Of a stretch of DNA of 64,000 nucleotides, positions 6,544-48,575 are shown piece after piece (the first letter of the stretch is position 1; each line of letters begins with the position of its first letter). The notes under the pieces are model-generated. The model had not been told where the DNA came from and did no database searches. It saw nothing but the letters and a program-made list of their open reading frames with translations. The position numbers and the translations under genes are program-made. Source of the DNA: an uncultured Gammaproteobacteria bacterium (GTDB lineage Bacteria > Patescibacteriota > Patescibacteriia > JAHIZJ01); NCBI GenBank assembly GCA_964371245.1, contig CAYJKP010000001.1, positions 571,042 to 635,041 of the forward strand. Reading direction: 5' to 3'.

Positions 6544-7419
6544 TTATCGAATGAAATACCAGGTGAGGTAACTCGTCACGTCGGTCAGGTCAGCTTTACC
6601 GGTTACCGCGACAGCATTAGAGCTCTCCAAAAGCACGCCAGTCTTCGCACCCCGTCTCTCAACATATTCCAGTAGAGTTAGAATAGCCGGTTTTGAATCG
6701 ACATACATATCGTTGACGCCGGCCATATCGCGCTTCTGCAAAACAGCGATATTTATTTCCGCCTGTGCTTCGGCCACCGCCGGCGTGACTTCATGCGAAA
6801 AATCCACACTGGCGAGAACGAGCGCGTCGTCCGGCAACGCTGCGTCTAACGTCTCAGCCAATCGTTTCGTGTCATCGGCAGTTACGGTGTTTTTTAGCAC
6901 AATCGGCACAAACGTCGTCCGAGGAAAAGATTTTTGAATAAACGACACTTCGGCTGAAATCGAATGTTCTTTTTCAAACACCCGCTCGTCAATCTTTACC
7001 AAATCTTCTTTTGACAACGTATCGATAATTGCTTCGGCTGGCTGGAGCGTGCCGTAGGGCGTCGACCATTCTCCTTTTGACGAAATTATTGGCCCGCTTC
7101 CGGTATTAAAGTGGTTTGGTCCAATCACGACGACCACGCTTGGCGTTTGATTGCTCAACCCGAGAAAAAACCTGGCAATCAGATGGGAAGCCAGCAAATG
7201 ATGCGGGGTAATTCCAGCCACCGCAAAATCAGGCGATTCCTTCGGTTTTTCATTTTTGTATGCCCGGTCAAAAAACTCCCGGTCCATGAAGAACGATCGG
7301 TGAACAAGACGGTCGTTAATCAACCCGGAGTTTGTTGATAGAGAGGTTATGTTTTCCGATTTCGTGCCGCAGCCGGCGAGAAAAACCGCCACCGCGCAAA
7401 AAACCAGTATCTTCCTCAT
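6544..7419 (-). CDS. MEMO1 / AmmeMemoRadiSam-protein-B family protein, predicted lipoprotein
   Basis: The ITPHH, GPNHF and SVDFSHE motifs match the Memo family. The likely start is MRKILVFCAVAVFLAGC at 7419, which carries a lipobox. Confidence 0.65.
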   Translation of the reverse strand: MRKILVFCAVAVFLAGCGTKSENITSLSTNSGLINDRLVHRSFFMDREFFDRAYKNEKPKESPDFAVAGITPHHLLASHLIARFFLGLSNQTPSVVVVIGPNHFNTGSGPIISSKGEWSTPYGTLQPAEAIIDTLSKEDLVKIDERVFEKEHSISAEVSFIQKSFPRTTFVPIVLKNTVTADDTKRLAETLDAALPDDALVLASVDFSHEVTPAVAEAQAEINIAVLQKRDMAGVNDMYVDSKPAILTLLEYVERRGAKTGVLLESSNAVAVTGKADLTDVTSYLTWYFIR

Positions 7420-7420
7420 A

Positions 7421-9706
7421 CTAGCGGTGTAAGGCCCCGCCCCACTCAACGACGGTGAAACCATGCCGGACTGGCGTTTCGAGTTTTTGCGGTGTAACGG
7501 TAATCCGGGTGTCGAGCGGTTTGTAATCCATGAACACGCGGATGATCTGATCCGGCTTTGGGGTTACAGTCAGCGGTGCCAGCTGATCGAAAACAGCCTG
7601 ATCAATGAACGTCACGAACACGTACGGTTTCATTTCCAATTTCGGCTGCCAGAAATTGATGAACTCAGCGCTTTCGTTTCCGTTCAGTCCAAGGACGGAC
7701 AGCTTTTCTTCCAGGAATTGGTGTACTTCCGAACGGGCAACAACGAAGCCTTGTTTCGGTATTTCATAGTTTAAGCCTATTCCTTCCCAGAAGAGATATG
7801 GGTATTCATCGCCATTTGCTGTTTTTAACTGCCCGTCTGGCCGCGCGATCACTGACCATCCGTCGGCTGGATACACCGGCTCAGTCACGGTGAATCCCCC
7901 GGTCGGGCTGACCTTCACGTTAACCGGTGTTTCTTTTTCCGGATAGAGGTAGATAACCGGTTTGCCGCATTCGGCGGCCGGTACGTATGTGGCCTTCTTG
8001 AACCGCAGCCACATGCCGAATGGGTCCTGCCAGAAAAACACCGGATGATCGGCCGCAAACGCGTCGTAGCTGGGTTTTGTCTCCTCGATCGGCACATAGA
8101 AACTGTCATATACCTCTCTTAAAGCTGGGTTATTTTTGTCCGCAAATTCATAGACGGCATCGCCGGTAGACGTCCGGCCCGTGGCCACGAGCGCTGACTG
8201 TCCGCCCAGATCAGCTGGTGTTGTCAGGGCGTGGCAGAGCATCGTACCGCACCCGCCCGTCGGATCGTTATAGGTGTAATCTTCTGATATCCGTGTGCCG
8301 TCGTTCCAGCGCACGTCTGGCCGGAAGCTGGTCGCGCCGAAATACGGATTTTCCGCAGTCGGCACGCTGGTGGCAAAGTCAAGTTTGTAGATGTATTTCT
8401 TGGCGGTGCCGTCTTTTTGTCTGACTATGAAGCATTTTTCGTTCGTATCAAACGACACGTCGCCGACAGTCGCGTTTGTGAACTTCTCTTCCAGGGTGGG
8501 ATAATCGGTATACATTTTATTCGGATCAAAAGCCGTAGCGAGGAGTTTGGTAGATGAGTTTGGAATTGCGATTTCGGCCGGCACGGTGAAGCCACTGAGC
8601 GTCGCCTGCGTGTCATATTGGAACGGAAATCCGACTTGTTGCAGATCGTCGGAGTATTTCTCGAGATAGACAAAGCTGGCGGTATCCGGGTTATAGGCTA
8701 CCCGATAAAGATTTTTCTGAAACGCCGGGCCCATAGGCAATTCAAGAATCACGACGAGTGTCTGGCCGGCATACGGGCGGGTATTAATCGTGCCGACCTG
8801 ATAATACTGGCGGCTGCTGAAATAATCGCCGTATTGATCACCGGGGTTTTCTGCGTTTTCTATCAGATTCAGTTCGACCGGCGCCGCCAGCCATGAGACC
8901 GACAAATCGCCGCCTTCGTTCGCCACTTTCGCCTTCGCTGTAGGGTTGGAGATTTCCGTATATGACTTCGGATCAATGAATGTGAAGCTATCCAGAATGT
9001 CGTTGACGAGAGCCATGTTTTTTTCCAACGCGGTCTGAGGTGCATTCAGCGTGATTTGATAGACGCGTTGTCCCCGCGCAATATAGCCGTAGGCCACTTG
9101 ATAAGCCAAATTAACATCGGTATCGTTGGGCGTAGTCCGAATGAATGATTTCATGCCATTGTCCCGTGTCTCGATCTCGCCGTAGCTGTCGCCCTGACGT
9201 TCGGAACGCATGGCCGCCAGCTTCTTGTTCAACCAAACCTCGAAGCTCGAATCGTCGTTATTATAATAGGTAATCCACATAGGAAATATATAGCCGGCGG
9301 GTGCGTCGACCGATACGAGCGAATCCTCTTCGTTGATTCCCTGTGTCACCGGGCCGCCTGTCCAGTCCGACGGTACGGATATCTCGAAACCGTGATTATA
9401 CAGCTGATACGTAATTGTCCGCATGTTAGAGACCGGGATAACGACATTCGTGTTCGTATTGGCATTCAGATTGGTGTTGGTGTTTGTCAGGCTATTAGTA
9501 TTTGCGTTGGTACTTACATTTGCATTCGCATTTACATTATTACCAGTATTTAGGGTCGTGATTGTGCCCTTATCCGTGTCGCACTGGGTATAAAAATACG
9601 CGCCAACAACAAGACCGGCGGCAACAATAATCGTCAAAAGAAACCAAAGTGCCGGCAGGCCTTTTTTGGGCTGTCCACCGTTGTTTTTTTCGATTGGCTT
9701 GGCCAT
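7421..9706 (-). CDS. Large hypothetical membrane-anchored extracellular protein (761 aa) with an N/T-rich low-complexity linker
   Basis: An N-terminal transmembrane helix is followed by an NANANVSTNANTNSLTNTNTN linker and a large domain of unknown function. The end abuts the Memo-like gene start. Confidence 0.65.
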   Translation of the reverse strand: MAKPIEKNNGGQPKKGLPALWFLLTIIVAAGLVVGAYFYTQCDTDKGTITTLNTGNNVNANANVSTNANTNSLTNTNTNLNANTNTNVVIPVSNMRTITYQLYNHGFEISVPSDWTGGPVTQGINEEDSLVSVDAPAGYIFPMWITYYNNDDSSFEVWLNKKLAAMRSERQGDSYGEIETRDNGMKSFIRTTPNDTDVNLAYQVAYGYIARGQRVYQITLNAPQTALEKNMALVNDILDSFTFIDPKSYTEISNPTAKAKVANEGGDLSVSWLAAPVELNLIENAENPGDQYGDYFSSRQYYQVGTINTRPYAGQTLVVILELPMGPAFQKNLYRVAYNPDTASFVYLEKYSDDLQQVGFPFQYDTQATLSGFTVPAEIAIPNSSTKLLATAFDPNKMYTDYPTLEEKFTNATVGDVSFDTNEKCFIVRQKDGTAKKYIYKLDFATSVPTAENPYFGATSFRPDVRWNDGTRISEDYTYNDPTGGCGTMLCHALTTPADLGGQSALVATGRTSTGDAVYEFADKNNPALREVYDSFYVPIEETKPSYDAFAADHPVFFWQDPFGMWLRFKKATYVPAAECGKPVIYLYPEKETPVNVKVSPTGGFTVTEPVYPADGWSVIARPDGQLKTANGDEYPYLFWEGIGLNYEIPKQGFVVARSEVHQFLEEKLSVLGLNGNESAEFINFWQPKLEMKPYVFVTFIDQAVFDQLAPLTVTPKPDQIIRVFMDYKPLDTRITVTPQKLETPVRHGFTVVEWGGALHR

Positions 9707-22970: not shown

Positions 22971-24101
<1,131 letters not shown>

Positions 24102-38063: not shown

Positions 38064-38229
38064 ACTTCCAGTATAAACGATTTTTATAACGGACACAATG
38101 TTCACGCGCTGATTACTGGGGGTTTCTCTCGCTAAAACCAGCCGGTGGATAACTCCCTTGACAAATGATATTCATTTGCTATGCTTTATCTTGCTAAAGT
38201 GCTTTATCTTACTAAAGTTCAATAAAACC

Positions 38230-38553
38230 ATGGCTAACTGGTACAACCAAAAAGTCAAAAACTTATTTACGGCCGTTCTGAAGTTGAAAACGCCCGACGA
38301 AGCCCGGCGCTTTTTCCGCGACTTACTGACTGAGCAAGAAATACTGGAGTTCGCTAACCGCTGGCAAGCCGCTCAGCTGCTCGACCGCGGCGTCCCCTAT
38401 TCTATAATCTCGGCGAAAACCGGTTTAAGCTCGACAACGATTGCTCGCATCTCGCGCTGGCTGTATCGCGGCCTCAACGGCTATCAGCTGATGCTGAAAC
38501 GCCTCAATCTTCATCATCGCAACCCTGCCTCTTTCGAGAAAGGATTGCGTTGA
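38230..38553 (+). CDS. TrpR-related YerC/YecD family protein
   Basis: The likely start is MANWYNQKVKNLFTAVLKL. The helix-turn-helix region ISAKTGLSSTTIARISRWL is typical of this family. Confidence 0.65.
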   Translation: MANWYNQKVKNLFTAVLKLKTPDEARRFFRDLLTEQEILEFANRWQAAQLLDRGVPYSIISAKTGLSSTTIARISRWLYRGLNGYQLMLKRLNLHHRNPASFEKGLR

Positions 38554-38575
38554 TGTTTGCATAACGAACGCATAA

Positions 38576-38610
38576 ACCCGGCCCCTTCTCGAAAGAGAAG
38601 GGGTTTTTGC
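38576..38610 (+). terminator. Rho-independent terminator (CCCCTTCTCgaaaGAGAAGGGG followed by TTTTTG)
   Basis: A perfect 9-bp stem, 4-nt loop and T-run lie downstream of the YerC-like gene. Confidence 0.8.
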
Positions 38611-38650
38611 GTCGTGCAACAACCCGGCACATTCACATCTGGAGGCTCAG

Positions 38651-39709
38651 ATGAAACCTCTTTCCGATCTCGACGCGCGGTATGAGCGACAACCCCGACC
38701 ATCCGGTCTGCGCTATGGCATCATTGAGGTTACGACTCGCTGCCAGTGCCGCTGTCCCGGTTGCTACATGGTGCGACGGAATGTCTTGAACCACAACGAT
38801 CTTTCGCTGAGCGACGCTGTTCAAGTGCTAGATCTCTGCCGTGAGTACTGCGGACGCGAACTGGAAACAATGGACATTCTCGGAGGCGAGCCATTGCTGT
38901 GGCCAAGGCTTCAATCTTTCATCACTGTTCTGTTGAAGCGCGGGGTCAAGCCGTGGATTTTCACGAACATGCTGGCCGTTACGCCAAACCTGGCGCGCTG
39001 GCTGCATGAACGCGAGATCCACATTACGGGCAAGCTGAACATTGATCCTGATGCCCGGGAACAACTTCCGATCCAAGCAGCGATGCTCGGGCGCAGCGAA
39101 AAAACGGCCGCGAAAATGATCCGCGCTATCTCGGTCTTTCTCGAAGCCGGCTACCGCGCGCCTCTCTTCCGGCTTCAGAATCTCATTCGCACAGCCAACA
39201 TTGATTTTGTTTCCGACTACTACCGTTGGTGCCTGGAGCATGAAATCGGAACGGACCTGGAAATGATGGGCTCGGGCGAAGCAATCGGTCCGGAGTATTG
39301 GGCAATTGCGCCAAAGCCAGAACAGATCGCGAAGATGATTAATCTCATCCAGGGCGTCAGAAGAAAATTCGGGCTTGGGCCGGGCTTCGTGCTCATGCCG
39401 CACATTTTTGGCGCCTGTCCCTTTTTCGACAAAGGCCTGTATTTTGCGGTCAACGGCACCATCAGAGCGTGCAGCAACAGTCAGACAACGCTGGCCCGTA
39501 TTTCAGACCGCGATCCGATCCGAAAAGCTTATGAGTCCGAACTTATCTGCCATCGCCACAGTCTTACCAGGCAATCAGTCGGACAACCCTGCCAGTCGTG
39601 CGACCGTTGGGAAAAGTGCCGCGGCGGCTGCCGAGCCACGGCTGAGGGCACCGGAGGTTCTTACGCTGGTTACCCACTCTGCCCCCTGCCCTTTCTGACA
39701 GGCATCTAG
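38651..39709 (+). CDS. Radical SAM enzyme with a C-terminal SPASM domain (peptide/protein-modifying maturase class)
   Basis: The CX3CX2C motif is present (CQCRCPGC) and the SPASM motif is CQSCDRWEKCRGGC, with further auxiliary cysteines. An RBS GGAGG precedes the start. The gene is monocistronic and about 58% GC. Confidence 0.85.
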   Translation: MKPLSDLDARYERQPRPSGLRYGIIEVTTRCQCRCPGCYMVRRNVLNHNDLSLSDAVQVLDLCREYCGRELETMDILGGEPLLWPRLQSFITVLLKRGVKPWIFTNMLAVTPNLARWLHEREIHITGKLNIDPDAREQLPIQAAMLGRSEKTAAKMIRAISVFLEAGYRAPLFRLQNLIRTANIDFVSDYYRWCLEHEIGTDLEMMGSGEAIGPEYWAIAPKPEQIAKMINLIQGVRRKFGLGPGFVLMPHIFGACPFFDKGLYFAVNGTIRACSNSQTTLARISDRDPIRKAYESELICHRHSLTRQSVGQPCQSCDRWEKCRGGCRATAEGTGGSYAGYPLCPLPFLTGI

Positions 39710-39724
39710 CTTCCAGCATCCTGG

Positions 39725-39768
39725 CTTGAGAGAAAGACCCGTCCTTTCTCTCAAGCCATTTTTTATTT
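39725..39768 (+). terminator. Rho-independent terminator (CTTGAGAGAAAG-N8-CTTTCTCTCAAG followed by a T-run)
   Basis: A 12-bp perfect inverted repeat followed by ccatttttta lies downstream of the radical SAM gene. Confidence 0.8.
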
Positions 39769-40320: not shown

Positions 40321-40711
40321 GGGGATGTATACAATCGACGGGGAGTACATTTACAAACCAGCCAACCAGAGTCCAGGTCTCTGTCAACCCCTGGAACATC
40401 GACAAATGCCAAGTCGTTTACAGCGAAACTGAAGACTGCGTTTGCATCATTCAGTCTCGCTCCCGCTGTCGCCTAAAACGCGCACAGCCATCCGCCCTTC
40501 TGACTCCTGATGGGGAGGTCGCGGGTGTCATGAAATCAGGACGGACGGTTTCGCGTTTCCCGAAGTCGGTACCGGGCAAGAGAAACTAGGATCGTTTGGG
40601 ATTTTCGCCTGTTTCGACTCAAGCGATCCGAACCAAACCAAATAGGCTATGTTGGTAGACGGTTTGCGAAGAACTCTCAAGACAGGGGTGAAAGGCCCCT
40701 CATCTCCACCA
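40321..40711 (+). ncRNA. ssrA: tmRNA (ssrA)
   Basis: The 5' GGGGAUG pairs with the 3' CAUCUCC, including the G3:U70 alanine identity pair. CCA is encoded, a T-arm-like hairpin precedes the acceptor, a short internal ORF (...ASFSLAPAVA) ends in UAA, and the gene is adjacent to smpB. Length is 391 nt. Confidence 0.8.
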
Positions 40712-42040: not shown

Positions 42041-42652
42041 ATGTTCTGTCTTTGGGGCTGTATGGTGTTCGCATCACTCTTCTTCTCGATCCAGGGGCTG
42101 CCGAGCCAGCCCTACACGATTCGAGAAGGCGACACGCTCTGGGCGCTCTTTCAAGACCTCGAAAAGGCCGACTTCGTGGCGCGTCTCAACGGCCTGGAAC
42201 CTTCCCAGCTCCAGCCAAAACGGGTCATTGAGATACCAACGGATTGGTCGCTCTGCCGTTCCTACGCCCCCCTGCCGAAGGTTCTACCGGAACAAACCAA
42301 GGTTCCGCAGTTGACGCTCGTCGATCTGAAAACGCAGTTCCTCGGCACCTATGAACACGGCCGGCTGACCTGGTGGTGCCGCATCTCCCCGGGCACGGAT
42401 GAAAAGCCGACGACGACCGGCACCTGCCATGTTGAGTGGAAAGATATCGACCATGTGTCGAACCTTTACCTTGACGACGAGGGCAACGGCCTGCCGATGC
42501 ATTACGGGGTGAATATCGGCGGAGAATTCTGGATCCATGAGGGCTACTTGCCAGGCTACCCTGCCTCACACGGCTGCATCCGGCTGCGCCACACTGACGC
42601 AAAGTACTATTACGCCTGGGTTCGTGTCGGCGCAACGGTGATTGTGCAGTAA
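42041..42652 (+). CDS. LysM domain plus L,D-transpeptidase (YkuD) domain protein
   Basis: YTIREGDTLWALF is a LysM motif and HEGYLPGYPASHGCIRLRH is the L,D-transpeptidase catalytic Cys motif. The gene is about 57% GC. Confidence 0.75.
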   Translation: MFCLWGCMVFASLFFSIQGLPSQPYTIREGDTLWALFQDLEKADFVARLNGLEPSQLQPKRVIEIPTDWSLCRSYAPLPKVLPEQTKVPQLTLVDLKTQFLGTYEHGRLTWWCRISPGTDEKPTTTGTCHVEWKDIDHVSNLYLDDEGNGLPMHYGVNIGGEFWIHEGYLPGYPASHGCIRLRHTDAKYYYAWVRVGATVIVQ

Positions 42653-45648: not shown

Positions 45649-47190
45649 CTATTTTTTTATTGATTCGGAAACGTCGATAAATTCCCAGGGCCGGTTCCAG
45701 GTATTAAAATAATTCCGGTCAGGCAAGCGTTCGAGGCTTTGACCGAAAACCGTATTGAAGAGAAGCCGAAAGGTGTTTACCGGAGTAATCGTCGAATACA
45801 ATTCGCTCTTCATCGCCGCCGGCACGTAAAACGCATTCAGAATCGATAAGCGTTCTTTCATGTTCGTTTGGTCGGGCCGTTCCCAATCAAGCTGTGAGCC
45901 CGGACCGTGATCTGATTGAATGATGATTATCGGCGGCTGGGGTGACTGCGCGAGCAGCCGTTTCACCGTCGCCATAACCTTTTCACTGACATAGGCGAGC
46001 TGGTCGCGATACTGCTGTCGATAGAGCGCTTTATCCGGGTAGTATTTGAAATAATGGCTGCCATCATAGGCAAATAGCCCGCCCTTCATGATCGGCACCC
46101 CGCCGTTCGCATCAAAAACAAAGGGTGGGTGCGGCGACATAATATGCACATAGGTAAACGTCGGAGCGGGATTTGAAGCGAGATCAGGCAGATGATCCAG
46201 CGCAAAAAGCACCTCGCGACGATGCTGATTTGTTCGTATCGTTCGGTCAAATATTCGACTGAGCGGTGTCGTGGCAATGAGCATGTTTTCAAATTCGCTG
46301 ACCGTGGCTGCCTCGTGGAGTCTCAGATCGGCTGGCAAATGTTGGCTCAGGCCGACCCAGCCGGATGGGAAGGAAACAAATTGATAGCCCAAACCTTTTA
46401 AAAATGAGTGCGTGGTGCTGTTTTCGATCATGGTCCGGAGCGCGCCGCGATCGTCCGCCGCTGCGCCAGGCGTCGACATCGTTGAATCGATGTACTCGGA
46501 ATTCAGAGACGACGCGATCGAAAAAAACGTCTGGGGATAGTTCGCCGTGCTCTGGTCAGCGATGTAAAACCCGGCTTGCTGCAAAAAAGAGATTAACTCG
46601 CTATTGTCAGACTGGTATATTTCCTTCAGGACGTCGGTGCGAGCATACCCATCAAGGACAAGGTAATAAATATCGGGTTTTTCTTTTTGCTCAGCGATAA
46701 CCGATGACATTTCATTTGCCGGCGTTTCTGTTTTTTGCCCGGCCGTCTGGATAGCATACCGCGTCACCGTAAACAATGGAAAACAGACGAGCAATATCCC
46801 GACGGTCGTCAGATATGTTGTGACAATCTGCAAGGTTCGACGAGTTGTAACAATTAATGCCGTCAGGGCGACAATGATTATCAGCGCTACGATTAAAAAA
46901 GGATAATAGAGATCGAGGGCAAGGCCGTTGCGCTGAACCGAAGGCATGAGCTGAAACACATGACCGAACGAATAAAACCCAACCGTCCAAAGCGAGGCGA
47001 TAATTGCGGCTTTTACGTTTGATTTTACTATTACCCAAACCAGGGCAAAAAAAATAGCCTCACCTAGGCACGCCGCCACAATCGGGCGGACGAGATAGGC
47101 CGGGGTAACTAAATCGATATTATGGCTGTAGAGCAGCAGAATTGGGGCAATGGCAAACAGTAACGGATGAGCCAAACGAAGATATTTCAT
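45649..47190 (-). CDS. Membrane-anchored sulfatase-like / LTA-synthase-family hydrolase (alkaline phosphatase superfamily)
   Basis: Five N-terminal transmembrane helices are followed by an extracytoplasmic domain with DIYYLVLDGY and a sulfatase-like fold. 513 aa. Confidence 0.65.
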   Translation of the reverse strand: MKYLRLAHPLLFAIAPILLLYSHNIDLVTPAYLVRPIVAACLGEAIFFALVWVIVKSNVKAAIIASLWTVGFYSFGHVFQLMPSVQRNGLALDLYYPFLIVALIIIVALTALIVTTRRTLQIVTTYLTTVGILLVCFPLFTVTRYAIQTAGQKTETPANEMSSVIAEQKEKPDIYYLVLDGYARTDVLKEIYQSDNSELISFLQQAGFYIADQSTANYPQTFFSIASSLNSEYIDSTMSTPGAAADDRGALRTMIENSTTHSFLKGLGYQFVSFPSGWVGLSQHLPADLRLHEAATVSEFENMLIATTPLSRIFDRTIRTNQHRREVLFALDHLPDLASNPAPTFTYVHIMSPHPPFVFDANGGVPIMKGGLFAYDGSHYFKYYPDKALYRQQYRDQLAYVSEKVMATVKRLLAQSPQPPIIIIQSDHGPGSQLDWERPDQTNMKERLSILNAFYVPAAMKSELYSTITPVNTFRLLFNTVFGQSLERLPDRNYFNTWNRPWEFIDVSESIKK

Positions 47191-48575
47191 CGCTTTTTCA
47201 TTAGATACAACACGCGTTCGGAATCATCGATATTCCGCCGTTGCTCGATTTTGTAATATTTCGAAAACGCCCGTTCAAATTCATTTTGCGTGTAGTCTTG
47301 AAATATATCTTCCCGCGCTGCTAACAAGCGCTGGGCGTTCGAGTCGGATTTCGGAATGAATTCGGCAATCAGCCAAGCGCCGCAATCAGAAAAATAGCGG
47401 GCGATAAAATCAAGCGGCAGATTGTGACCGATCGCTAAATGGTGGATTAATGCTAACGCCATAACAAGACTGACCGGACCGCGCTGGGCAAGGGACAAAC
47501 GCTCGTTGTTATGCCACCCGAGCGGCGCCGTTGGGTTAACCAGGTCAAGGTAGAGCGGCAGGAGATTTTTTTCTTTGTGTTCGACAACGGTGCGATAATT
47601 TTTCTCGACCGCCACGTAGTCACTGTCGAACGCCACGGTGAACGCGTCCGTCTGACTGGCCAAACGGCTGTAGGTGCCGTCATTCGCACCAAAATCCCAA
47701 ACGGTCGCCGGTCGCACGTGTTCAATAAATGCGGCGATGATTGTTTGCTTGCTTTGTTTCGCTCTGGCTGAATAATTTGTCTGATAATCGCCCCAGACTG
47801 TTTTCGGCGGTTGCCAGCGGAGCGACCGGATACCAACCTCAAGATTCTCGATAAGCGCCAACAGACCGCGCAGCGAGAGGCTGCCCGATTTAGTTTTTAC
47901 CGTTTTTGCTTGATACCGTTTTTGACTCGAGGCATGCGCGTGGATATGGGTCAATAGCGGTAATTTGAAACGGGACGTAACCGGCAGAAGCCGCTGGACG
48001 AAATCAAGCGGCAGTCCGTCGAGAAAAACGCGAAGCAGCTGGCCGAGGCGCACGTCTCGATATGCCATCACGCTTAATGGGCCGAAAAAATGTTCGCAAA
48101 ATTGCCGATAGGCAATCCACGGTTGTCCCGGCTGGTAGATCTCAAACGACAGACTGTCGATGCAAATTGGTCGGCCGTCTTTAAATTGAATATTGTAGAC
48201 ACTGCTATCTTTTAGGATTAGGCCATACTGAAGCGCCTGCTTCATGAGTGCCAGCGTCGTGAAGGCAGCGGCTTGGAGTTCACCAAAGCACCATTCGTAA
48301 GGGTAGGATATGAACGGAATAATTTCGGGTTGAATGACCAAGTAGCCGTCATCCGTTTGTGTGGGCTGACTTGTCTCATGATGCGAGATCAACAAACCAG
48401 CCTGGGTCAAGGAGTCATATAAGCCTGATTTCATCAACCGTTCGTAATGCTCGCGGTAGCGCTGATTGATCTGCCGGTAAAGCACGCCGTCCGAATAAAA
48501 AACAAACCCGCTCGGATCGCGATATGAGCTGCCGACACGCTTAATCTGAACAGTTTTATTGTCGCGGTTGATCAT
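47187..48575 (-). CDS. Class I SAM-dependent methyltransferase-domain protein with an N-terminal domain of unknown function
   Basis: Motif I VWDFGANDGTYS is present. 462 aa. It overlaps the upstream gene by 4 nt. Confidence 0.55.
   Translation of the reverse strand: MINRDNKTVQIKRVGSSYRDPSGFVFYSDGVLYRQINQRYREHYERLMKSGLYDSLTQAGLLISHHETSQPTQTDDGYLVIQPEIIPFISYPYEWCFGELQAAAFTTLALMKQALQYGLILKDSSVYNIQFKDGRPICIDSLSFEIYQPGQPWIAYRQFCEHFFGPLSVMAYRDVRLGQLLRVFLDGLPLDFVQRLLPVTSRFKLPLLTHIHAHASSQKRYQAKTVKTKSGSLSLRGLLALIENLEVGIRSLRWQPPKTVWGDYQTNYSARAKQSKQTIIAAFIEHVRPATVWDFGANDGTYSRLASQTDAFTVAFDSDYVAVEKNYRTVVEHKEKNLLPLYLDLVNPTAPLGWHNNERLSLAQRGPVSLVMALALIHHLAIGHNLPLDFIARYFSDCGAWLIAEFIPKSDSNAQRLLAAREDIFQDYTQNEFERAFSKYYKIEQRRNIDDSERVLYLMKKR

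What the first reader, a model, noticed from the sequence alone, without database searches (positions are those of the whole stretch)
38230..39768. Stand-alone radical SAM/SPASM maturase, GC-rich and tightly insulated by terminators, next to a TrpR-like YerC/YecD regulator and smpB-ssrA
The enzyme has a canonical CX3CX2C cluster and a full SPASM motif (Cx2Cx5Cx3C). It sits as a monocistronic unit between two strong terminators at 38576-38610 and 39725-39768, with a GGAGG RBS. SPASM enzymes normally act on a co-encoded peptide or protein substrate (RiPP precursors, sulfatases, quinoprotein precursors), but no precursor-like small ORF is visible nearby. Possible substrates in the window are the membrane sulfatase-like protein at 45649-47190, if the enzyme is anSME-like, or an unannotated short peptide. 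Its roughly 58% GC contrasts with the flanking smpB. The adjacent YerC/YecD regulator is an unusual neighbour.
Basis: partly seen in the sequence, partly recalled or inferred. Interest (0 to 1): 0.55.

Follow-up and report, generated by a model that had tools for sequence, protein, structure and literature searches.

The report
Histidine-regulated radical SAM operon in CPR
The radical SAM/SPASM gene is real, but it is not an isolated unit: it is the second gene of a small operon that appears to switch on when histidine runs short, and it belongs to an uncharacterised enzyme family found only in the tiny-celled Patescibacteria (CPR), whose substrate is still unknown.

Summary
Window 38651-39709 (+) encodes an intact 352-aa radical SAM enzyme with CX3CX2C and a full 7-Cys SPASM motif. 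It has a GGAGG RBS, hairpin terminators on both sides, a YerC/YecD gene upstream and smpB-tmRNA downstream. The reading as a stand-alone, insulated maturase does not hold. YerC is HisR, the histidine repressor of the TrpR family, and it precedes this enzyme in 54 of 62 related Patescibacteria loci. In the window, a promoter and two exact tandem HisR operators (CTTTA-N6-TAAAG) precede hisR. The last 14 hisR codons carry CAU-CAU. They form a hairpin whose 3' half can pair with the 5' arm of the "insulating" terminator, and this pairing covaries across loci. This looks like a His-leader attenuator fused to the repressor gene. In other loci the same His-His peptide is a separate small upstream ORF. 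The enzyme matches no named SPASM family, and the sulfatase-like protein has no formylglycine motif. In 53 of 57 loci the next gene is a nearly histidine-free, Cys-rich 150-aa protein of unknown fold. This window lacks it. Most likely this is a histidine-starvation-induced protein-modifying or salvage enzyme; the substrate is unknown.

The parts
38158..38185 (+). Sigma-70-like promoter TTGACA-16 nt-(TG)TATGCT upstream of hisR
   Evidence: 10 of 12 consensus matches with an extended -10 TG. It is a consensus match only.
38183..38200 (+). HisR operator 1, GCTTTAtcttgcTAAAGT
   Evidence: exact CTTTA-N6-TAAAG at 38184-38199. It matches the published HisR consensus cacTTTAnnnnnnTAAAgtg (PMC9413887). 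The same palindromes lie upstream of hisR or the leader ORF in 36 of 55 loci, about 21-fold enriched.
38201..38218 (+). HisR operator 2, GCTTTAtcttacTAAAGT, in tandem 18 bp after operator 1
   Evidence: exact match at 38202-38217. These two are the only exact matches in the 64 kb window. Tandem pairs with 18-bp spacing recur in other loci.
38230..38553 (+). hisR (YerC/YecD family, TrpR-like histidine repressor), 107 aa, with a 14-aa C-terminal His-His tail
   Evidence: -: TIGR02531 70.6 bits against a cut-off of 42.2.
- PF01371 69.8 bits.
- best PDB match is 3G1C, the E. eligens protein that PMC9413887 treats as HisR, E 2.2e-15.
- conserved upstream of the rSAM gene in 54 of 62 loci.
38512..38517 (+). 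Tandem His codons CAU-CAU (H95, H96), the candidate sensor codons of the leader
   Evidence: an HH or HxH motif lies in the hisR tail (41 of 55 loci) or in a separate upstream small ORF (7-8 loci). In most loci the first His codon is 11-13 codons before the stop.
38512..38555 (+). Hairpin H1 (segments 1:2), spanning the His codons to the hisR stop codon (UGA 38551-38553)
   Evidence: part of the minimum-energy fold (z = -5.4 for the region); 80% of cells paired across 18 loci against 31-49% for slid controls. One pair shows AU:5 / GC:5 covariation.
38536..38590 (+). Antiterminator: segment 2 (38536-38551, the 3' arm of H1) pairs with segment 3 (38575-38590, the 5' flank and 5' arm of the terminator)
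   Evidence: -: this pairing forms when the terminator 3' arm is withheld.
- 82% paired against 39-59% for slid controls; covariation score 0.279 reached by 0 of 500 shuffles; 7 pairs with compensatory changes.
- cognate duplexes average -12.8 kcal/mol against -10.9 non-cognate and -7.3 shuffled, permutation p about 3e-4.
38581..38608 (+). Intrinsic terminator T1 (segments 3:4), GCCCCUUCUC-GAAA-GAGAAGGGGU plus U5
   Evidence: -18.5 kcal/mol. Its sequence is unusually conserved across lineages (ACCCCTTCTC...GAGAAGGGGT).
38641..38645 (+). Shine-Dalgarno GGAGG of the rSAM gene
38651..39709 (+). Radical SAM/SPASM enzyme, 352 aa, member of a Patescibacteria-restricted orphan family
   Evidence: - establish the ORF, family searches, homologues, alignment, fold matches and family size.
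- only 4 conservative deviations at 133 columns that are at least 90% conserved, so the gene is not decaying.
38741..38764 (+). CX3CX2C radical SAM cluster motif (C31, C35, C38)
   Evidence: invariant.
39416..39682 (+). SPASM domain with 7 invariant Cys (C256, C274, C314, C317, C323, C327, C344)
   Evidence: One search shows the invariant Cys. TIGR04085 scores 25.8 against a cut-off of 27. The PqqE SPASM region aligns.
39722..39768 (+). Strong intrinsic terminator T2 ending the operon. In most relatives the partner gene lies between the rSAM gene and this position.
   Evidence: 15 bp stem plus T-run. Searches show the partner gene is absent from the window.

Best explanation
The ORF is an intact member of a small radical SAM/SPASM family restricted to Patescibacteria. 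It is the distal gene of a histidine-responsive operon, not an insulated unit.

**Layout.** Promoter, two HisR operators, hisR (YerC), T1, SD, rSAM, T2. The last 14 codons of hisR double as a His-His leader peptide.

**Proposed control**
- When histidine is plentiful, HisR-His sits on the operators. Ribosomes also run to the hisR stop codon and mask the 3' arm of hairpin H1, so terminator T1 forms.
- With no translation, H1 and T1 both form and transcription again stops.
- When charged tRNA-His is scarce, HisR leaves the operators and the ribosome stalls on CAU-CAU at the foot of H1. The freed 3' arm then pairs with the 5' arm of T1 (antiterminator) and RNA polymerase reads into the rSAM gene.

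**Proposed enzyme action.** The enzyme uses SAM-derived 5'-deoxyadenosyl radical chemistry with two auxiliary clusters. Like the RRE-less SPASM enzyme anSME, it most likely acts directly on a protein or peptide. The likeliest partner or substrate is the nearly His-free, Cys-rich ~150-aa protein encoded immediately downstream in 93% of related loci. That gene is missing from this 64-kb window and is presumably elsewhere in the genome. The output is presumed to help the cell cope with histidine shortage.

**Shown:** the motifs, family membership, conserved gene order, operators, and conserved, covarying alternative helices.

**Inferred:** histidine as the signal, stalling as the switch, the protein substrate and the physiological role.
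For: - **Enzyme.** Invariant cluster motifs. Fold matches to SuiB, anSME, SkfB, ChlB, PqqE and CteB at TM about 0.6. The family is tight: 25 clusters at E<=1e-30 among 1.84 billion representatives.
- **HisR identity.** TIGR02531 above its cut-off. The best PDB hit is 3G1C, which the paper treats as HisR. The paper shows yerC = HisR, L-His-dependent DNA binding and the operator consensus.
- **Operators.** Two exact tandem boxes lie only in front of hisR. Boxes are 2.2 per kb in regulatory regions against 0.10 per kb elsewhere across 55 loci.
- **Linkage.** hisR lies upstream in 54 of 62 loci and the partner downstream in 53 of 57, while wider contexts differ.
- **Leader.** An HH peptide is fused to hisR in 41 of 55 loci and is a separate small ORF in 7-8. 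It is kept even where hisR is not adjacent.
- **Alternative RNA helices.**
- **No separate promoter.** None is predicted between T1 and the ATG.
- **Other histidine links.** hisS lies next to the cassette in 5 distinct loci, including a hisR-hisS operon in L030. The partner family has 0.16% His against 1.8% in the background.
Against: - Nothing here is experimental. HisR-family paralogues with other specificities exist (HisR2 with tyrosine genes).
- There are only 2-3 His codons, against 7 in E. coli hisL (my own knowledge). A leader fused to a 107-codon gene has no precedent I know of.
- Covariation counts come from related sequences. The H1 covariation alone is weak.
- The terminator-like duplication could have another cause.
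- The window lacks the proposed partner, yet the enzyme shows no decay, so the partner may not be the substrate.
- The window enzyme is not His-poor: 7 His in 352 residues.
- No chemistry links a SPASM enzyme to histidine supply.
Confidence: 0.5

Rival explanations
1. Same histidine-responsive regulation, but the enzyme works on a small molecule. It would be a radical salvage or bypass reaction that yields or spares histidine. The usual downstream protein would be an Fe-S or accessory subunit rather than a substrate.
For: - In histidine auxotrophs the HisR regulon consists of histidine-acquisition genes (transporters and hisR itself). By analogy this cassette takes that place.
- The enzyme persists intact without the partner gene nearby.
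- The partner has a mostly conserved CX3CX2C plus two more Cys and confident globular folding, pLDDT 95.5.
- Some SPASM and twitch enzymes (AhbD/NirJ, BtrN, MoaA) act on small molecules (my own knowledge). The nearest remote relatives give their weak best hits to AhbD, NirJ and PqqE models.
Against: Full 7-Cys SPASM enzymes with this fold neighbourhood are mostly peptide or protein modifiers. No candidate substrate or transporter is conserved nearby. No known radical route to histidine exists.
Confidence: 0.2
2. The His-His peptide (the YerC tail or the separate small ORF) is a RiPP precursor and the SPASM enzyme is its maturase. The hairpin after it is the usual precursor-gene attenuating terminator that sets precursor:enzyme stoichiometry.
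For: - A small ORF directly upstream of a SPASM enzyme is the classic RiPP layout (my own knowledge).
- The peptide is modular, either fused or free.
- The fused tails share HH-x-N...S-x-x-K-G-L.
- Weak HMM hits to the HxsB, YhhB and StsB maturase models.
Against: - Only HH is universal. Short versions such as MNIISQKLHHQITSP share nothing else.
- The tail's nucleotide sequence tracks the terminator arm, including compensatory changes, which points to RNA-level selection.
- The enzyme has no RRE domain, and no protease or exporter is conserved nearby.
- A repressor domain used as a leader is unprecedented.
- Making a His-containing product when HisR is derepressed at low His is illogical.
Confidence: 0.08
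3. The regulator is a YerC-family paralogue that responds to something other than histidine. T1 is a plain terminator of the regulator gene, and the enzyme is made by basal read-through. The resemblance between the tail and the terminator would be a duplication relic.
For: HisR2 paralogues associated with tyrosine genes exist. The effector was not tested here. The H1 covariation is weak on its own. Non-cognate tail/terminator pairs also pair fairly well.
Against: - The operators match the HisR consensus, not the TrpR consensus.
- His codons are the one universal feature of the leader.
- hisS is a neighbour and is co-operonic with hisR in L030.
- The partner is nearly His-free.
- The antiterminator helix beats all shuffles and all slid registers across deeply diverged lineages.
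Confidence: 0.12
4. One reading: an anSME-like maturase whose substrate is the membrane sulfatase-like protein at 45649-47190, or another stand-alone housekeeping enzyme.
For: The architecture resembles anSME: about 350 aa, no RRE, a full SPASM domain, TM about 0.64 to anSMEcpe.
Against: - The sulfatase-like protein has no C/S-x-P/A-x-R motif and falls below the Pfam threshold.
- The anSME model TIGR03942 is not among the 25 matches listed of 35, and none of those reaches its cut-off.
- That protein is not a conserved neighbour in any related locus.
Confidence: 0.02

Closest known systems
Anaerobic sulfatase-maturating enzyme (anSME, e.g. anSMEcpe, PDB 4K36-4K39)
   Same: About 350-370 aa. Radical SAM core plus a 7-Cys SPASM domain with two auxiliary clusters and no N-terminal RRE. 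Among the best fold matches, TM about 0.64. anSME acts directly on a protein motif (my own knowledge).
   Different: 14-15% identity. The anSME HMM is not among the listed matches, none of which reaches its cut-off. No sulfatase with a formylglycine motif is present. The gene context and regulation are different.
PqqE / MftC / AhbD-NirJ group of SPASM enzymes
   Same: These are the best sequence-level hits: MftC 34.9 bits, AhbC 31.4, PqqE 30.7 and NirJ2 31.2. The PqqE 6C8V SPASM region aligns.
   Different: All scores are far below the curated cut-offs (265-650 bits). No PqqA-D, MftA/B or haem genes are nearby. Remote relatives of the family are also unassigned.
HisR regulon (YerC, TrpR-family histidine repressor; Ashniev et al. 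2022, PMC9413887)
   Same: The regulator family, the TTTA-N6-TAAA palindromic operator, operators in front of hisR itself (autoregulation), and the operator position at the promoter.
   Different: Known targets are his biosynthesis genes and the transporters yuiF and hisXYZ. Here the target is a radical SAM/SPASM enzyme, usually with an orphan protein. Patescibacteria were not among the phyla covered by the paper. HisR here carries an extra C-terminal His-His tail.
Leader-peptide transcription attenuators (hisL, trpL; Firmicutes His-leader attenuators in PMC9413887)
   Same: Tandem regulatory codons just upstream of mutually exclusive 1:2, 2:3 and 3:4 helices ending in an intrinsic terminator. 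Free-standing versions such as MNIISQKLHHQITSP have the size and design of trpL (the trpL comparison is my own knowledge).
   Different: Only 2-3 His codons. In most loci, including this window, the leader is the 3' end of the 107-codon repressor gene rather than a separate mini-ORF. There is no Rfam match. The regulated genes are not biosynthetic.
RiPP precursor plus SPASM maturase clusters (sactipeptides, ranthipeptides, streptide, triceptides)
   Same: A short peptide ORF followed by a hairpin and a SPASM enzyme. Fold similarity to SuiB, CteB and SkfB.
   Different: No RRE domain, no conserved core beyond HH, no protease or exporter, and RNA-level covariation of the peptide-coding region.

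Membership tests
Radical SAM superfamily | CX3CX2C motif binding the SAM-cleaving [4Fe-4S] cluster in a partial TIM barrel | tested here: met
   C31/C35/C38 are invariant. The alternating strand-helix core has fold matches to many radical SAM structures. Pfam PF04055 scores only 26.5 bits against a gathering score of 29.5, so the HMM alone is borderline.
SPASM subfamily | C-terminal CX9-15GX4C ... CX2CX5CX3C ... C motif (7 Cys, two auxiliary clusters) | tested here: met
   All 7 Cys are present and invariant. TIGR04085 scores 25.8 against a cut-off of 27, just below. The best structural matches are SPASM enzymes.
anSME (anaerobic sulfatase maturase) | Family HMM above cut-off, and a sulfatase substrate carrying C/S-x-P/A-x-R | tested here: not met
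   TIGR03942 is not among the 25 matches listed of 35, and none of those reaches its cut-off. The sulfatase-like protein at 45649-47190 has no such motif and scores 23.4 in Pfam Sulfatase against a cut-off of 25.
PqqE / MftC | Equivalog HMM above cut-off, and a co-encoded precursor peptide plus chaperone (PqqA/PqqD, MftA/MftB) | tested here: not met
   30.7 bits against 381 for PqqE and 34.9 against 265 for MftC. No such neighbours appear in 72 loci.
HisR (YerC/YecD, TrpR family) for the upstream gene | Family HMM above cut-off | tested here: met
   TIGR02531 scores 70.6 against 42.2. The best solved relative is 3G1C, E 2.2e-15.
HisR (YerC/YecD, TrpR family) for the upstream gene | 20-bp palindromic operator of type cacTTTA-N6-TAAAgtg in front of regulated genes or hisR | tested here: met
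   Two exact tandem CTTTA-N6-TAAAG boxes at 38184-38217 are the only ones in 64 kb. They are enriched about 21-fold in the equivalent regions of related loci.
HisR (YerC/YecD, TrpR family) for the upstream gene | L-histidine-dependent DNA binding | not testable with these tools
   Shown only for R. gnavus HisR. Paralogues with other presumed effectors exist.
Leader-peptide transcription attenuator | Translated leader with tandem codons of the sensed amino acid | tested here: met
   CAU-CAU at 38512-38517. An HH or HxH motif is present in 49 of 55 loci, fused or as a separate ORF.
Leader-peptide transcription attenuator | Mutually exclusive terminator and antiterminator helices conserved with covariation | tested here: met
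   - Terminator.
- Antiterminator: 82% paired, covariation reached by 0 of 500 shuffles, all slid registers worse.
- H1: 80% paired, but covariation only suggestive.
Leader-peptide transcription attenuator | Read-through depends on ribosome stalling under amino-acid limitation | not testable with these tools
   Needs reporter or in vitro assays.
Patescibacteria hisR-rSAM-partner cassette (defined here) | hisR or His leader upstream, rSAM/SPASM of this family, and the ~150-aa Cys-rich His-free protein downstream | tested here: inconclusive
   The first two parts are present. The third is absent from the whole window by tblastn and by profile search. Only 4 of 57 evaluable loci lack it. It may lie elsewhere in the genome.

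The most novel reading that the evidence does not exclude
The radical SAM/SPASM enzyme, together with its His-free Cys-rich partner of unknown fold, would be a previously unknown histidine-starvation effector of Patescibacteria. It could be a radical route that salvages or spares histidine, or that matures a His-free substitute protein. It would be controlled by a new regulatory design in which the C-terminus of the histidine repressor's own ORF serves as the attenuator leader peptide.
Probability: 0.3. Interest if true: 0.85.

Novelty: new variant of a known kind. Interest (0 to 1): 0.62.

Why it matters
Patescibacteria (CPR) are thought to be amino-acid auxotrophs living off other cells, and how they sense and respond to nutrient shortage is largely unknown.

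- **A nutrient-responsive regulon.** This locus offers a defined candidate. It combines a known repressor family (HisR), recognisable operators and a His-codon attenuator, all pointing at two uncharacterised proteins.
- **A functional handle.** That gives a specific starting point, histidine limitation, for an orphan radical SAM/SPASM family and an orphan fold.
- **An unusual regulatory design.** The repressor gene's own 3' end appears to act as the leader peptide of an attenuator.
- **A caution for genome mining.** A SPASM enzyme with a short upstream peptide is not necessarily a RiPP cluster.

Tried and rejected
**Classification of the enzyme**
- NCBIfam and Pfam gave no family above cut-off.
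- Remote relatives from the exhaustive profile search are also unassigned.

**The anSME/sulfatase idea**
- Rejected. The sulfatase-like protein has no formylglycine motif.

**Search for the partner gene in the window**
- tblastn with 25 homologues and an HMM against all six-frame ORFs found nothing.

**Identity of the partner protein**
- No hit in Pfam, NCBIfam, PHROGs, PADLOC or a PDB sequence profile.
- Foldseek against the PDB found no match at E<=0.001 despite pLDDT 95.5.

**Defence-system membership**
- Only a weak viperin hit limited to the N-terminal cluster motif. Rejected.

**Known RNA families for the leader**
- No Rfam hit, including the His leader.

**GC excess as a sign of horizontal transfer**
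- The excess is modest (56% against 50%) and is exceeded by another gene in the window. Not pursued.

**Relaxed selection after loss of the partner**
- Not seen.

**Literature**
- Nothing found linking YerC/HisR with radical SAM, or SPASM with CPR.

**Queuosine idea**
- His and Asn codons are read by Q34 tRNAs (my own knowledge), and a Tgt gene is present in the window. I considered a queuosine link and set it aside. The operator, the hisS neighbours and the His-free partner point to histidine itself.

**Short free-standing leaders**
- Folds for L045, L046, L092, L096 and L021 show leader/terminator pairings of varying topology. I did not analyse them statistically.
Full report
**1. What is in the sequence**

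Window 38651-39709 (+) is a 352-aa ORF preceded by GGAGG at 38641-38645.
- It has CX3CX2C (C31, C35, C38).
- It has a complete SPASM pattern: C256-x12-G-x4-C274, C314-x2-C317-x5-C323-x3-C327, and C344.
- All ten cysteines are invariant among 19 diverse homologues.

Two hairpins flank it.
- Upstream: GCCCCUUCUC-GAAA-GAGAAGGGGU plus U5 at 38581-38608.
- Downstream: a 15-bp terminator at 39722-39758 with a T-run.

The neighbouring genes are as follows.
- Upstream gene 38230-38553: YerC/YecD, TIGR02531 70.6 bits against a cut-off of 42.2.
- Downstream: smpB and tmRNA at 40321-40711 (Rfam, 79 bits). ARAGORN missed the tmRNA.
- argS is divergent upstream. infC-rpmI-rplT follow the tmRNA.

GC of the rSAM gene is 56.2%, against 50.3% for the window.

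**2. What kind of enzyme**

No NCBIfam equivalog comes near its cut-off. The best are MftC at 34.9 against 265 and PqqE at 30.7 against 381. The generic SPASM model scores 25.8 against 27.

An AlphaFold model built from the alignment (pLDDT 77, pTM 0.83) matches SPASM peptide/protein maturases best. These are SuiB, anSMEcpe, SkfB, ChlB, PqqE, TigE and CteB, at TM about 0.55-0.65 and about 15% identity. At 352 aa it has no room for an RRE domain, so its architecture resembles anSME.

An exhaustive profile search of 1.84 billion representatives finds only 25 clusters at E<=1e-30. Beyond that lies a continuum of distant SPASM proteins. Those that I scanned also belong to no named family.

Homologues are 57-69% identical. 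The sources name them as Patescibacteria: Gribaldo-, Doudna-, Buchanan-, Kerfeld-, Magasanik-, Peri-, Peregrini- and Gracilibacteria. It is therefore an orphan, tightly conserved, CPR-restricted SPASM family.

**3. The neighbourhood is the informative part**

I collected 95 related loci, of which 72 are unique.
- A YerC-like gene lies just upstream on the same strand in 54 of 62 evaluable loci.
- A ~150-aa protein lies just downstream in 53 of 57.
- Nothing else is conserved.

The downstream protein has these properties.
- No Pfam, NCBIfam, PHROGs, PADLOC or PDB-sequence relative.
- A very confident predicted fold (pLDDT 95.5) with no PDB match.
- A mostly conserved CX3CX2C plus two more Cys.
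- Almost no histidine: 0.16%, median zero per protein, against 1.8% in 307 neighbouring ORFs.

This window is one of four exceptions that lack the downstream protein. The rSAM stop codon is followed directly by T2 and smpB. Neither tblastn nor an HMM finds a homologue anywhere in the 64 kb. Locus L019 has the same synteny, with the gene present between the rSAM gene and smpB. The window enzyme shows no decay: 4 conservative deviations at 133 highly conserved columns.

**4. YerC is HisR**

The literature search returned Ashniev et al. 2022 (PMC9413887). The paper reports the following.
- B. subtilis yerC encodes HisR, a TrpR-family repressor of histidine biosynthesis and transport genes.
- Its 20-bp operator consensus is cacTTTAnnnnnnTAAAgtg.
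- DNA binding by R. gnavus HisR requires L-histidine.
- PDB 3G1C is the E. eligens HisR.

The window protein's best solved relative is 3G1C, E 2.2e-15.

Immediately downstream of a good promoter match (TTGACA-16-TG-TATGCT, 38158-38185) lie two exact tandem boxes, gCTTTAtcttgcTAAAGt and gCTTTAtcttacTAAAGt, at 38183-38218. These are the only exact CTTTA-N6-TAAAG matches in the window.

Across 55 loci, such palindromes occur at 2.2 per kb in the hisR-upstream or hisR-rSAM regions, against 0.10 per kb elsewhere. They take the form ACTTTA-N6-TAAAGT in some lineages and GTGTTA-N6-TAATAC in others, often in tandem 18 bp apart.

hisS is a neighbour in five distinct loci. In L030, hisR and hisS form an operon divergent from the rSAM gene.

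**5. The "insulating" upstream terminator is part of an attenuator-like element**

HisR proteins of this cassette carry a tail beyond the TrpR domain. In the window it is ...LNLHHRNPASFEKGLR*.

Where HisR lacks the tail, the same peptide is a separate small ORF just before the same terminator. Examples:
- L032: MNDKAIQNLNRVHHDNFFSPEKGLC*
- L047: MYQRINTLAQGSITHHHNHSRLRKGCG*
- L045: MNIISQKLHHQITSP*
- L096: MNYIFLNNLHHTKGLG*

Loci with no adjacent hisR still keep the box, the leader and the terminator. Overall 41 of 55 loci are fused and 7-8 are split. HH is the only universal feature, and in most fused loci the first His codon lies 11-13 codons before the stop.

At the RNA level the region folds as follows.
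- 38512-38555 folds into hairpin H1, running from the CAU-CAU codons to the UGA stop. T1 follows (z = -5.4).
- If the T1 3' arm is withheld, the 3' half of H1 pairs with the T1 5' arm and its flank.

On an 18-locus alignment (A3) the counts are these.
- H1: 80% of cells paired against 31-49% for slid registers. Covariation is only suggestive.
- The 16-bp antiterminator helix (38536-38551 with 38575-38590): 82% paired against 39-59%. It has 7 pairs with compensatory changes, and its covariation score of 0.279 was reached by 0 of 500 shuffles.
- Cognate tail/terminator duplexes are more stable than non-cognate, shuffled or upstream-control segments: -12.8, -10.9, -7.3 and -8.0 kcal/mol, permutation p about 3e-4.

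No promoter-like site lies between T1 and the rSAM ATG, so the enzyme can only be transcribed by reading through T1. No Rfam family matches the region.

**6. Model**

- **High histidine.** HisR-His occupies the operators. Ribosomes reach the hisR stop and cover segment 2, so T1 forms.
- **No translation.** H1 and T1 both form, and transcription stops.
- **Low charged tRNA-His.** The promoter is derepressed. A ribosome stalled on CAU-CAU covers the 5' arm of H1, segment 2 pairs with segment 3, T1 cannot form, and the rSAM gene is transcribed.

The sequence features are shown. The signal and the switch are inferred by analogy with the trp and his attenuators and the HisR regulons.

What the enzyme does is not shown. 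Its architecture and fold neighbours favour direct action on a protein or peptide. The conserved, His-free downstream protein is the obvious candidate partner or substrate, and a nearly His-free protein fits synthesis during histidine starvation. The window enzyme is intact without that gene nearby. This keeps open a small-molecule role (histidine salvage or sparing), or simply a relocated partner.

**7. Rivals**

- **RiPP reading** (the HH peptide as precursor). Disfavoured because only HH is universal, the coding sequence covaries with the terminator, there is no RRE, protease or exporter, and the regulatory logic would be wrong.
- **anSME/sulfatase idea.** Contradicted by the absent motif.
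- **Non-histidine effector.** Cannot be excluded, because HisR2 paralogues exist. It is hard to square with the His codons, the hisS neighbours, the operator type and the His-free partner.

**8. Novelty and verdict**

The components are of known kinds: a SPASM enzyme, HisR and a leader-peptide attenuator. The combination appears undescribed in the searchable literature. Four things are new:
- an orphan CPR-specific SPASM family as the HisR target;
- an orphan-fold, His-free partner;
- an attenuator leader fused to the repressor ORF;
- a variant, this window, that lacks the partner.

I rate it a new variant of a known kind, with interest about 0.6. The regulatory reading is reasonably well supported in silico. 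The enzymatic function remains open.

Noticed in passing
window 40321-40711: The tmRNA gene is found by Rfam (RF00023, 79 bits) but not by ARAGORN, which reports only two tRNAs in the window.
   Followed up: partly
related loci, gene downstream of the rSAM (e.g. L008 2815-3285, L019 ~7154-7627; proteins P0121-P0153): The ~150-aa partner family is almost histidine-free: 0.16% His, median 0 per protein, against 1.8% in neighbouring ORFs. Its predicted fold is very confident (pLDDT 95.5), with no PDB match and no family assignment.
   Followed up: partly
L065 1204-2898: In this locus the rSAM gene is followed by a second, divergent TrpR-like gene and a second, distant radical SAM paralogue, not by the usual partner. 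L014 also carries two rSAM paralogues around hisR.
   Followed up: no
L004/L096 5649-6008 (L096 3649-4005), L028 5623-5997, protein P0154 residues 1-144: A small domain with a Y-x-G-H-G/S-D motif lies between the leader and the rSAM gene in the Magasanikbacteria locus (L004/L022/L096). It is read in frame with the rSAM N-terminus in L028 and P0154. It is rare, absent from the window, and of unknown function.
   Followed up: partly
L030 4062-5716; L016, L017: The histidyl-tRNA synthetase gene lies next to the cassette in five distinct loci. In L030, hisR and hisS form an operon divergent from the rSAM gene.
   Followed up: partly
window 45649-47190 (-): The membrane 'sulfatase-like' protein scores below the Pfam Sulfatase threshold (23.4 against 25) and has no C/S-x-P/A-x-R motif. 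It is more likely another member of the alkaline-phosphatase superfamily than a true sulfatase. The adjacent 462-aa ORF (47187-48575) has no family hit.
   Followed up: partly
window 38381-38408 (+): A promoter-like match (TCGACC-16-TATAAT, 10 of 12) lies inside hisR. If real, it would give transcripts that start within hisR and still face the hairpin/terminator element.
   Followed up: no
window 42041-42652 (+): A YkuD L,D-transpeptidase gene has the highest GC of the region, about 0.58-0.59.
   Followed up: no
window 22971-24077 (-): A tRNA-guanine transglycosylase (Tgt, Pfam 478 bits) is present. His and Asn codons in the leader are read by Q34 tRNAs (my own knowledge), so a queuosine link was considered but not supported.
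   Followed up: no
L045, L046, L092 leader regions (IGR between hisR and rSAM): In lineages with short free-standing leaders (e.g. MNIISQKLHHQITSP*), the minimum-energy folds pair the leader's 3' end with the terminator in a different topology from the fused type. The attenuator design may differ between lineages.
   Followed up: partly
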